Source of the DNA: Escherichia coli
Lineage (GTDB): Bacteria; Pseudomonadota; Gammaproteobacteria; Enterobacterales; Enterobacteriaceae
DNA length: 64,000 nt
Reading direction: 5' to 3' (one strand)
Assembly: GCF_051903065.1 (NCBI RefSeq)
Contig: NZ_CP178439.1
A program made the position numbers. Positions 30,701-33,700 of the stretch are shown in pieces. Numbering within the stretch: the stretch's first letter is position 1; each line of letters starts with the position of its first letter.

Positions 30701-33700
30701 TTTCGCACACTAACGAAGGTATGGCCTTTCGTCGGTGTTAAATTTTTCAAACTTTGCTTACTTTGTCAAGGAAGGTGACCGCAGTAGCAGGCACAACTAC
30801 TTTAATCTGTATGAATAATAAGGTAGAACCGGCCAGTGAATGAATGCTTACCCTGAAATCAGGCGGACAACCTTCAGGAATATTGATAGCAAGACTGAAT
30901 CTCTCGCTGCGGCGATAAACATTTCGCCATAACCCTGAACGAGAGTGGTTCATCCATCATATACAGGAGCGTTACATGCGCAAATTTAAGTACATAATCT
31001 GTCACCAGTGCGAAGGCCACGGGACCATGGAAAACCCGGCCTTTGAAAATGGATTCACCCAATCAGAAATGGCTGAGTGGGAGCCAGAAATGCGTGAAAA
31101 GTATTTTGCCGGAGCATTTGATGTTCGCTGTAACGTTTGTGCCGGTGACGGTAAGCTCAGCGTACCAAACGTAGCGGCTATGTCTTTTTCAGAACGACGG
31201 GTTCTGGCAGCACGGCGGCGTGATGAGCGTCTTCAGGCTGCTGATGAACGGCTGTCCCGCCAGGAACGAGCAATGGGGTACTGAGGTGCTACAGCAAAGA
31301 TGAAAATGACGAAGCCAAAACCGGTAAGCCGGATGAAAAGACCGTTTATTAGTGAGCTTGCAGAGCTGGGTTTATCGGGTGAAATTCTTTCAATTCGAAC
31401 TGACGGCATGCAGGGGACGCTCATACCCGATCTTACCGCAGGGGTGAGTGAAGCAGGCCGTGTGAAAACCGGCAACTGGGTAATCTCTGACAAGAGAACC
31501 TTCGACCATGTCGTTCTGTGTGTTGAAAGACAAGATGAGAACCATGATGTGTACGTAGGTAAATTCATCCAGTTACATGTAGCCGCTAATAAGAGCCTTA
31601 AGATCGTCGAAATGGGCGATGTGAAACTGGTGGCCATAACCAGCTCGATTCCTACCACTTTTAATGGTGGGATAAAGAGATACAAAGGGGTTACGTATGT
31701 GTCACTTTCCCAAACAGCTCAAACCACTATCGACTTCCCGAAGCGTATCTACAAAGAGGGCCAGGAATGTACTTCTGTCACCAGTCCTGACCAAGGTCCT
31801 TTCGCCCGGGATGTTAGGTTGAATTGCTACGGGCGATGTGTTGTCACCGGCGTAAGGTCCCCCTGGCGTACTGAGGCCGCGCACTTAACGCCACGTCATG
31901 AAGAAGGCATTCCCGACGTAACGAACGGAATTTTACTTCGCCGTGATATCCATACACTGTTCGACAATGACCATTGCGCCATAAACCCTGACACTATGAA
32001 AATTTACTTCAGCCGGGAGGCCCGGGAGTTGGATGATGATCTCCTGAAATGGCATGGGAATGAGATAGAGACGACACGCATGCAGGTTCCGGTTAACATC
32101 GAAAACCTTCGGATACGATGGCAAAAATTTAAGGCTAAGGATCGTCAGCGTAAATAAAGCCATAAGCTGAACCACGGCGAGGATTAGTCTTGTTCACTAA
32201 ATGACAGCGAGAGATTAAATGCAAACCCAAAAAGAAATTACAGTTGGCCAGATCTGGGAAGAAGTGGATCCAAGACTGATCCGGAAAGTGCGGGTTGTTG
32301 AGGTGGCCTCGTTAGAAGGGCCCAAAGGCATCCTTATCGAAAACGTGGAGTCTGGTCGTAAGAACTGGGCGTCGTCATCCCGCTTTAATGGAAAGCGTGG
32401 AGGGTATCGTCTTATTTCCTGACGGTTTTGCCAATATGGGAAACTGAAGAGGTTGAAACCATCCCGGTGAGGGAGCATATCTGGTAAAGAAGAGTCTTTA
32501 AAAAGGTTTTACGCGACCTGGGATAATAAACGGGAAAACGATACCCAAAAAAAGAATACAGCGATGATAACGATAAGGAATGGTAAGGGCTTCAATATTT
32601 TGAGAAATGCCCTGGCTTCCTTTGCATCTGCATTTCTAATCAAACTGTCCACATAGGGATCACAGCTCTTAGGTTCTGAATTTTTCATATGTTCTGTACC
32701 TGAAATTGATTCCGTATGAGAAAAGGCCACCGAAGTGGCCTCTATCAAAACTGGTGGCAAAAGTTAGATCAGGAAATCATCAAGACTTTTACCGGCTGCA
32801 ATTTGTTCTGCCAGAGCTTTGGGGGTACGGCCCTGTCCAGTCCACGTTTTTGTTTCGCCATTTTCATCAGTAAATGAGTATTTGGCCGGGCGTGGTCCAC
32901 GGCTTTTCTTGGTAGCCGTAGATTTGGCCTGGAATGAGCCAAGCAGCTCTTCCGGGTTGATACCATCTTCTTCCATTAACTTACGCAGGGCGTCAAGTTT
33001 CTCCTGACGAGCTTGCAGTTCGGCAGCTTTGGATGATTCTTCCTGACGGCACTGTTGCAAATAGTCGGTGGTGATAAACTTATCATCCCCTTTTGCTGAT
33101 GGAGCTGCACATGAACCCATTCAAAGGCCGGCATTTTCAGCGTGACATCATTCTGTGGGCCGTACGCTGGTACTGCAAATACGGCATCAGTTACCGTGAG
33201 CTGCAGGAGATGCTGGCTGAACGCGGAGTGAATGTCGATCACTCCACGATTTACCGCTGGGTTCAGCGTTATGCGCCTGAAATGGAAAAACGGCTGCGCT
33301 GGTACTGGCGTAACCCTTCCGATCTTTGCCCGTGGCACATGGATGAAACCTACGTGAAGGTCAATGGCCGCTGGGCGTATCTGTACCGGGCCGTCGACAG
33401 CCGGGGCCGCACTGTCGATTTTTATCTCTCCTCCCGTCGTAACAGCAAAGCTGCATACCGGTTTCTGGGTAAAATCCTCAACAACGTGAAGAAGTGGCAG
33501 ATCCCGCGATTCATCAACACGGATAAAGCGCCCGCCTATGGTCGCGCGCTTGCTCTGCTCAAACGCGAAGGCCGGTGCCCGTCTGACGTTGAACACCGAC
33601 AGATTAAGTACCGGAACAACGTGATTGAATGCGATCATGGCAAACTGAAACGGATAATCGGCGCCACGCTGGGATTTAAATCCATGAAGACGGCTTACGC

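What the first reader, a model, noticed from the sequence alone, without database searches (positions are those of the whole stretch)
30976..32422. HNH nuclease module 2: zinc-ribbon protein followed by a paralogous HNH-domain protein
A second HNH protein (GRCVVTG...AAHL...NGILLRRDIHTLFD) with a different N-terminal domain follows a 102-aa double-CxxC protein by 15 bp, and a 67-aa gene follows it. Two paralogous HNH modules 2.3 kb apart with different partner genes suggest diversification of a nuclease-based system, as seen in defence islands.
Basis: inference. Interest (0 to 1): 0.6.

Follow-up and report, generated by a model that had tools for sequence, protein, structure and literature searches.

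The report
Solitary sensor-HNH restriction-like nuclease, IncHI2 plasmid
The genes are real, but the 285-aa HNH protein looks like a self-contained restriction enzyme of the kind that cuts chemically modified foreign DNA, carried on the backbone of a widespread IncHI2 resistance plasmid, and the small zinc-finger gene in front of it is an unrelated neighbour rather than its partner.

Summary
The 102-aa double CxxCxGxG protein (30976-31284), the 285-aa HNH protein 15 bp downstream (31300-32157) and the 67-aa ORF (32219-32422) are annotated genes on a conserved IncHI2 plasmid backbone. The order there is ter cluster, HipBA, HNH-1, HNH-2, hns, then IS26 and the resistance region.

The most likely function is therefore a solitary Type IV-like, modification-dependent nuclease. 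The target is unknown and nothing was tested biochemically.

The "module" reading fails. Zinc-finger homologues in more than 100 clusters never sit next to an HNH gene. HNH-2 homologues mostly lack the zinc-finger gene. In the closest relative the zinc-finger gene is reduced to a 3' stump, while HNH-2 stays under purifying selection (dN/dS 0.11).

Verdict: a new variant of a known kind, of moderate interest.

The parts
31300..32157 (+). HNH-2, 285 aa: two-domain sensor-nuclease protein (candidate solitary Type IV-like modification-dependent endonuclease)
31342..31710 (+). N-terminal beta-barrel domain of HNH-2 (residues ~15-137): putative ligand or modified-base sensor. No Pfam family. Invariant G58 and W60; near-invariant T34, V71, F121.
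31711..31791 (+). Inter-domain linker (residues ~138-164). Low model confidence, but it contains conserved E153 and G154. The following 'DQxPF' motif (Q165, F168) leads into the HNH domain.
   Evidence: pLDDT below 50 for residues 140-164. Invariant and near-invariant columns. Aligns with the end of the VcaM4I linker helix (PMC7897488).
31792..32157 (+). HNH_2 beta-beta-alpha-metal nuclease domain plus C-terminal helices (residues 165-285). Predicted catalytic residues are H195 (general base), N209, H218 and D222 (metal ligands).
   Evidence: Family profile versus PDB hits only VcaM4I, E 1.4e-5. The residue mapping uses that alignment together with VcaM4I H224/N241/D250/D254 from PMC7897488. 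N209, H218 and D222 are invariant; H195 is near-invariant, missing only in the frameshifted fragment P0018.
30976..31284 (+). 102-aa zinc-finger protein with two DnaJ-style CxxCxGxG motifs and a basic C-terminal helix. It belongs to a family of small proteins of large plasmids and ICEs and is not a conserved partner of HNH-2.
   Evidence: Pfam gives only a weak DnaJ_CXXCXGXG match, E 1.1. At least 100 homologous clusters, 102-121 aa. Contexts have no HNH. Truncated in L019.
32219..32422 (+). 67-aa ORF of unknown function. It is IncHI2-specific and absent next to HNH-2 homologues elsewhere.
   Evidence: Annotated WP_001194555.1. No significant Pfam, NCBIfam or PADLOC match; only a weak PHROG hit, E 0.018. 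tblastn finds it in 966 plasmid records, nearly all at 95% identity or more. Absent from L002-L008 and L019.
28933..29748 (+). HNH-1, 271 aa: paralogue sharing only the C-terminal HNH_2 region with HNH-2. Its N-terminal domain is different and unassigned.
   Evidence: It is syntenic with HNH-2 in L005 and L019. dN/dS 0.07-0.09.
32764..33047 (-). hns-family paralogue, convergent with HNH-2 and 5'-truncated by IS26, whose left inverted repeat starts at 33048
   Evidence: NCBIfam StpA/H-NS match to profile positions 39-134 only. IS26 inverted repeat at 33048. A full-length 134-aa H-NS occupies the same position in L019, L002 and L005.

Best explanation
HNH-2 is a self-sufficient, single-polypeptide restriction-like nuclease of the Type IV (modification-dependent) design, carried on the IncHI2 backbone. 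Steps marked 'inferred' rest on analogy with VcaM4I and TagI. Shown: the C-terminal HNH_2 domain has a complete active site. Inferred: the protein dimerises through the HNH domains, and the N-terminal beta-barrel binds DNA and accommodates a flipped non-canonical base in a pocket that includes the invariant W60 and near-invariant F121. Inferred: binding relieves inhibition by the conserved linker, and the HNH domain (H195 as general base, H218 and D222 holding the metal) cuts nearby DNA. IncHI2 plasmids live stably in enterobacterial hosts that methylate their own DNA with Dam and Dcm (general knowledge). The target is therefore inferred to be a modification the host does not make, such as hypermodified phage DNA or foreign methylation on incoming elements. 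HNH-1 is a paralogous nuclease chassis with a different N-terminal sensor, presumably with a different specificity. The zinc-finger gene and the 67-aa gene are independent small backbone genes that happen to be co-oriented, and possibly co-transcribed, with HNH-2 in this lineage.

For: Solitary function: homologues sit alone in a Leclercia chromosome, after terF, and in other plasmids. No methyltransferase gene lies next to HNH-2 in the window or in any homologue context, and there is no conserved neighbour. Purifying selection gives dN/dS 0.11.

Literature: fusions of a PUA-type sensor with an HNH nuclease are an established class of modification-dependent restriction enzymes (PMC6765204, PMC7897488).

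Against: The linker is predicted disordered rather than forming the autoinhibitory helix of VcaM4I.

PADLOC and NCBIfam give only weak, sub-threshold hits. No modification specificity can be inferred. There are no experimental data for this protein. About 30% of IncHI2-type records carry only truncated copies, so the gene is dispensable.
Confidence: 0.55

Rival explanations
1. HNH-2 is a defence or competition nuclease whose N-terminal domain senses something other than a modified base in DNA, for example a free nucleotide or metabolite, ssDNA or a DNA structure, or a phage protein. It would then act as a triggered, possibly abortive, nuclease rather than a classical Type IV enzyme.
Against: The overall architecture and the nuclease chassis match DNA-modification-dependent enzymes best. 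The ter association is absent in most homologue contexts.
Confidence: 0.2
2. One reading: the zinc-ribbon protein and HNH-2 form a two-gene system in which the small protein is required for, targets, or inhibits the nuclease, in the manner of an antitoxin or immunity protein.
For: There is a 15-bp gap, same strand and likely co-transcription. The adjacency is ancestral to IncHI2 and the L019 lineage, where the 3' stump of the gene still abuts HNH-2. A residual 34-aa ORF covering the C-terminal helix persists in L019.
Against: No zinc-finger homologue was found within 6 kb of HNH-2 homologues in L002-L008. No HNH was found near zinc-finger homologues in Klebsiella, Pseudomonas, Paraburkholderia or Chromobacterium elements. 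The zinc-finger family (at least 100 clusters) is far broader than the HNH-2 family (19 clusters). In L019 both CxxCxGxG motifs are deleted, yet HNH-2 is intact with dN/dS 0.11.
Confidence: 0.06
3. HNH-2 serves plasmid biology rather than defence. It could be a nuclease involved in recombination or repair, processing of transferred DNA, or killing or exclusion of competing replicons during conjugation.
For: It is a conserved backbone position in IncHI2 and related plasmids, next to hns and HipBA. Most homologues are on plasmids.
Against: It is not within the transfer regions. It is also found alone in a chromosome. It is frequently truncated in otherwise conjugative plasmids. No relative with such a role appeared in the PDB or family searches.
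Confidence: 0.1
4. HNH-2 is an inert or decaying accessory gene with no current function in this plasmid.
For: About 280 of about 955 near-identical records contain only fragments. UniProt and AFDB hold many fragment entries.
Against: The window copy is full length. The catalytic residues are conserved across 41-73% identical homologues. dN/dS is 0.11.
Confidence: 0.05

Closest known systems
VcaM4I / TspA15I group (EVE-HNH Type IV modification-dependent restriction endonucleases; PDB 6yex; PMC7897488, PMC6765204)
TagI / ScoA3IV (SRA-HNH Type IV enzymes; PDB 6ghs)
   Different: The SRA domain recognises 5mC, and several members are reported as toxic in Dcm+ E. coli (PMC6765204). HNH-2 is stably carried in E. 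coli and Salmonella, which are normally Dcm+ (general knowledge), so it probably does not target Dcm sites. There is no SRA sequence signature.
PD-T4-3 (5hmC-specific restriction endonuclease with a GIY-YIG nuclease domain; PDB 9u75)
   Different: The nuclease fold is different (GIY-YIG versus HNH). The match is weak and sequence identity is 12%.
EcoKMcrA / ScoMcrA (HNH Type IV enzymes with non-PUA or multiple sensor domains)
   Different: The scores are far below family cut-offs (17 versus 180 bits). The sensor domains are different (NEco, SBD).
DnaJ-type CxxCxGxG zinc-finger modules (for the 102-aa protein)
   Same: Two CxxCxGxG motifs with spacing suitable for one zinc centre. There is a weak Pfam DnaJ_CXXCXGXG match.
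   Different: The match is not significant (E 1.1). There is no J-domain or chaperone context. The protein belongs to its own family of about 100-aa proteins of plasmids and ICEs, of unknown function.

Membership tests
PUA-sensor/HNH Type IV modification-dependent restriction endonucleases (VcaM4I/TagI-like) | C-terminal HNH (beta-beta-alpha-metal) nuclease domain of the HNH_2 type with intact catalytic residues | tested here: met
PUA-sensor/HNH Type IV modification-dependent restriction endonucleases (VcaM4I/TagI-like) | N-terminal modification-sensing domain of the PUA superfamily (SRA, EVE, YTH, ASCH) | tested here: inconclusive
PUA-sensor/HNH Type IV modification-dependent restriction endonucleases (VcaM4I/TagI-like) | Solitary gene with no cognate methyltransferase or obligatory partner | tested here: met
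   Neighbourhoods show no conserved neighbour and no adjacent methyltransferase.
PUA-sensor/HNH Type IV modification-dependent restriction endonucleases (VcaM4I/TagI-like) | Cleavage or restriction that depends on a DNA base modification | not testable with these tools
   This needs biochemistry or phage assays. No published data were found.
PUA-sensor/HNH Type IV modification-dependent restriction endonucleases (VcaM4I/TagI-like) | Homodimerisation through the HNH domains | not tested
   tblastn across all fetched loci, contexts, and the zinc-finger gene truncated in L019 with HNH-2 intact.
Toxin-antitoxin or nuclease-immunity pair | The nuclease gene is never retained intact without the protective partner | tested here: not met
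   L019 has intact HNH-2 (dN/dS 0.11) with both zinc motifs of the upstream gene deleted. Homologues in L002-L008 have no zinc-finger or 67-aa homologue nearby.
Known anti-phage defence systems in PADLOC-DB v2 | A match to a system-specific model | tested here: not met
   There is only a weak generic HNH model hit, PDLC04132, E 7e-4 for HNH-2. There is none for the zinc-finger or 67-aa proteins.
DnaJ central zinc-finger domain (PF00684), for the 102-aa protein | A significant profile match to CxxCxGxG repeats | tested here: not met
   The motifs are visible by eye and the second is invariant across aligned homologues (the first lies in the region missing from the truncated Pseudomonas copy). 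The Pfam E-values are only 1.1 and 5.4.

The most novel reading that the evidence does not exclude
The N-terminal barrel of HNH-2 is a previously undescribed sensor family: no Pfam family and only about 29 representatives in 1.84 billion proteins. It may recognise a ligand that no characterised Type IV enzyme reads. Candidates are a hypermodified phage base or a free nucleotide or nucleoside-like product, possibly linked to the adjacent ter cluster, whose phage-inhibition mechanism is unexplained as far as I know. HNH-1 and HNH-2 would then form a two-specificity defence layer that helps explain the host-protective phenotypes of IncHI2 plasmids.
Probability: 0.12. Interest if true: 0.65.

Novelty: new variant of a known kind. 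Interest (0 to 1): 0.35.

Why it matters
The gene sits on the conserved backbone of IncHI2 plasmids, which are known carriers of multidrug resistance in Salmonella, E. coli, Enterobacter and Klebsiella. Near-identical copies occur in about 950 PLSDB plasmid records. If HNH-2, and its paralogue HNH-1, are active modification-dependent nucleases, these plasmids give their hosts a barrier against phages or rival elements with modified DNA. That would bear on phage therapy and on plasmid competition. The N-terminal domain would also be a new reader module with possibly new specificity, which is useful for epigenetic tools. The finding also corrects the idea of a zinc-ribbon/HNH two-gene system. 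The zinc-finger protein belongs to a separate and much broader family of small plasmid and ICE proteins of unknown function.

Tried and rejected
1. Sequence-level identification of the HNH-2 N-domain found nothing. I tried Pfam on the protein and on 16 family members, NCBIfam, PADLOC and PHROGs, phmmer and hmmsearch against PDB sequences, and hhalign against an ASCH protein.

2. The first AF2 model, from 15 sequences, was too weak (pLDDT 61). It was redone with 27 sequences that included distant and standalone homologues (pLDDT 81).

3. Genomic contexts of the standalone N-domain proteins and of P0046 were uninformative, because the contigs are only 0.7-1.6 kb.

4. Zinc-ribbon as partner, immunity protein or regulator: rejected on the co-occurrence evidence.

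5. A regulatory RNA in the 548-bp gap upstream of the zinc-finger gene: no Rfam match at E up to 0.1. The promoter and terminator scan was no better than shuffled sequence.

6. A functional link to the ter cluster was considered. One homologue lies directly after terF, but most contexts lack ter, so this stays a low-probability lead. Whelan 1995 could not be read.

7. The literature search found no experimental work on these proteins or their accession numbers.

8. dN/dS for the zinc-finger gene could not be computed because synonymous sites are saturated.

Full report
**What is there**

The window is the backbone of an IncHI2-type conjugative plasmid. The stretch 28000-33100 is 100% identical in many Salmonella, E. 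coli and Enterobacter plasmids of about 250 kb. At least 429 records cover 80% or more of it. One representative is typed IncHI2A/MOBH.

The gene order on the + strand is as follows:
- the tellurite-resistance region: TerY-kinase-phosphatase genes, terXYW, biosynthetic genes, terZABCDEF
- small ORFs
- HipB/HipA (26515-28141)
- 68-aa and 136-aa ORFs
- HNH-1 (28933-29748)
- a 141-aa secreted protein
- a 548-bp gap
- the 102-aa zinc-finger protein (30976-31284)
- HNH-2 (31300-32157)
- a 67-aa ORF (32219-32422)
- a convergent hns paralogue

The backbone is then interrupted by IS26 at 33048, followed by mph(A)-mrx and further IS26-bounded resistance DNA.

**The observation**

- The zinc-finger protein has two CxxCxGxG motifs and a good Shine-Dalgarno sequence.
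- HNH-2 starts 15 bp after its stop codon and carries Pfam HNH_2 (PF13391, E 3.3e-12, residues 180-229).
- HNH-1 carries the same domain (E 1.5e-6).
- The two share 31% identity over the last ~134 residues (E 3e-12), and their N-terminal halves are unrelated.
- All the genes are annotated in RefSeq.

These are genuine genes. Against a relative plasmid (L019), HNH-2 (73% identity) has dN/dS 0.11 and HNH-1 (90% identity) has 0.09. The zinc-finger protein has full-length homologues at 45-63% identity that keep the second CxxCxGxG motif and about 25 other invariant positions.

**What HNH-2 is**

An AlphaFold2 model built on 27 diverse homologues has mean pLDDT 81. It shows two confidently folded domains (cores above 90) joined by a low-confidence linker at residues 140-164.

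Using that alignment and the published active site of VcaM4I (H224, N241, D250, D254; PMC7897488), the equivalent residues in HNH-2 are H195, N209, H218 and D222. N209, H218 and D222 are invariant. H195 is near-invariant, missing only in the frameshifted fragment P0018. The upstream 'DQxPF...C..TG' lead-in is also kept. The nuclease is therefore very probably active.

*The N-terminal domain.* Residues ~15-137 form an all-beta barrel with no Pfam, NCBIfam or PDB sequence match. In two independent models, its best structural matches are all PUA-superfamily readers of modified nucleic acid, or enzymes that contain them:

These scores are modest, so I treat the PUA assignment as likely but not established. 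Foldseek against AFDB50 aligns both domains to many roughly 300-aa 'HNH/putative restriction endonuclease' proteins at 14-19% identity.

*Rarity and modularity.* A profile search of 1.84 billion representative proteins finds only 29 relatives of the N-domain. Some have the same N-domain-plus-HNH architecture at 267-283 aa. About a dozen are standalone 109-120-aa proteins. One of them, P0046, is particularly informative. Its C-terminal half is an unmistakable VcaM4I-type HNH (E 7.6e-17 to 6yex residues 197-307), so the new domain there occupies exactly the slot of the EVE sensor. G58 and W60 are invariant across the family, and T34, V71 and F121 are nearly so. I suggest, by inference only, that the aromatic residues line a ligand pocket, as P24, W82 and Y130 do in VcaM4I.

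**Is the zinc-finger gene a partner?**

No. The evidence is as follows.
- HNH-2 homologues at 41-55% identity occur in four other settings. These are a plasmid with an unrelated 86-aa upstream gene (L002/L003), a plasmid with the HNH-1/HNH-2 pair but different intervening genes (L005), directly after terF (L004), and alone in a Leclercia chromosome (L006-L008). tblastn finds no zinc-finger or 67-aa homologue in any of them.
- The zinc-finger family is much larger, with at least 100 clusters in Klebsiella, Pseudomonas, Paraburkholderia, Chromobacterium and Cronobacter elements. It includes about 585 Klebsiella-type plasmid records at about 48% identity; the one examined is typed IncHI1B/IncFIB.
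- In six inspected contexts the zinc-finger gene sits among small hypothetical genes, toxin-antitoxin pairs and orphan methyltransferases, and never next to an HNH gene.
- L019 is the closest relative backbone and keeps the order HipB-HipA-HNH-1-...-HNH-2-hns. There, only the last ~140 bp of the zinc-finger gene survive immediately upstream of HNH-2. Both zinc motifs are gone, yet HNH-2 is intact and constrained.

The adjacency is therefore ancestral to this small clade, but the zinc finger is dispensable for keeping HNH-2. One caveat remains: a 34-aa ORF covering the C-terminal helix persists in L019. The 67-aa ORF is confined to IncHI2-type plasmids and has no significant family match.

**Most likely mechanism**

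The best reading is a solitary Type IV-like, modification-dependent nuclease. By analogy with VcaM4I and TagI (PMC7897488, PMC6765204), the barrel would dock on DNA carrying a non-host modification. The linker would release the HNH dimer, and the HNH site would cut nearby.

The plasmid lives in hosts that methylate their DNA with Dam and Dcm (general knowledge). Several SRA-HNH enzymes are reported as toxic to Dcm+ cells (PMC6765204). The target is therefore probably not Dam or Dcm methylation. Hypermodified phage DNA or foreign methylation patterns are the natural candidates. HNH-1 would be a second chassis with another sensor.

What is shown here is domain homology, active-site conservation, modularity of the N-domain, solitary occurrence and purifying selection. 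What is inferred is ligand identity, base flipping, dimerisation, autoinhibition and any phenotype. I put this explanation at about 0.55.

The rivals are:
- a nuclease triggered by some other ligand (0.20)
- a plasmid-biology role (0.10)
- the two-gene module (0.06)
- an inert gene (0.05)

**Comparison with the known, and novelty**

The protein works like the PUA-HNH Type IV enzymes and shares their nuclease domain by homology. Its sensor domain is a new sequence family whose membership of the PUA superfamily is only weakly supported. It matches no system-specific PADLOC model. NCBIfam gives only a sub-threshold hit (17 bits against a 180-bit cut-off) to the phosphorothioate-dependent endonuclease model. 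No paper in the searchable library mentions these proteins.

I classify it as a new variant of a known kind. Interest is moderate. The design is expected, but the sensor is novel, the gene is extremely widespread through IncHI2 resistance plasmids, and it lies near the ter cluster. The title of Whelan et al. 1995, seen in the reference list, credits that cluster in R478 with phage inhibition. I could not read the paper.

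Noticed in passing
window 32764-33120 (- strand); IS26 inverted repeat at 33048-33061: The plasmid's hns-family paralogue is 5'-truncated by IS26, and the called 118-aa ORF runs 73 bp into the IS. Related backbones (L019, L002, L005) have a full-length 134-aa H-NS at this position.
   Followed up: partly
L019 5834-5983, just upstream of the HNH-2 homologue at 6001-6852: In the closest relative backbone only codons ~58-102 of the zinc-finger gene survive. A different 174-aa gene replaces the upstream sequence. A 34-aa ORF covering the basic C-terminal helix remains.
   Followed up: yes
P0046 (metagenome contig L022 203-1027): A protein that combines the rare HNH-2-type N-domain with a VcaM4I-type HNH (E 7.6e-17 to 6yex). 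This is evidence that the sensor domains are shuffled between nuclease chassis.
   Followed up: partly
P0039, P0043-P0052 (metagenomic proteins of 109-120 aa): Standalone copies of the HNH-2 N-terminal domain exist as small proteins. Their contigs were too short to show context.
   Followed up: partly
L006/L007/L008 5212-5622 and 6001-6849: In a Leclercia chromosome the HNH-2 homologue lies 378 bp downstream of an ASCH-domain gene, which is itself a PUA-superfamily protein. This could be coincidence or a functional pairing.
   Followed up: no
L004 4609-6855: An HNH-2 homologue (41% identity) sits 147 bp after terF of a ter operon, and a DUF4236 gene lies nearby as in the IncHI2 ter region. This hints at a recurrent ter-HNH association.
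   Followed up: partly
window 31300-32157 homologues in PLSDB: About 955 plasmid records carry HNH-2 at 95% identity or more, but only 678 records have 80% or more coverage. Many plasmids therefore hold truncated copies, for example residues 159-285 only, presumably from IS-mediated deletions at this edge of the backbone.
   Followed up: partly
window 30428-30975: A 548-bp stretch without an annotated gene lies upstream of the zinc-finger gene. It has no Rfam match and no convincing promoter or terminator, and only unannotated minus-strand ORFs of 68 and 89 aa.
   Followed up: partly
window 28933-29748 (HNH-1): The N-terminal ~140 residues of the paralogous HNH-1 also lack any Pfam, NCBIfam or PDB match. 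PHROG families 23050 and 20585 share only its C-terminal nuclease region.
   Followed up: partly
window 33048-62068: Ten IS26 terminal repeats, corresponding to about five IS26 copies, bound a mosaic resistance region of higher G+C. It includes mph(A) (33937-34842) and mrx (34839-36077).
   Followed up: no
L016 1-2855 and L017 6557-7471; L009 flanks: Zinc-finger homologues in other elements lie among arrays of small hypothetical genes near orphan DNA methyltransferases, a giant methylase-helicase fusion and toxin-antitoxin pairs. This neighbourhood is reminiscent of plasmid anti-defence or establishment regions.
   Followed up: no
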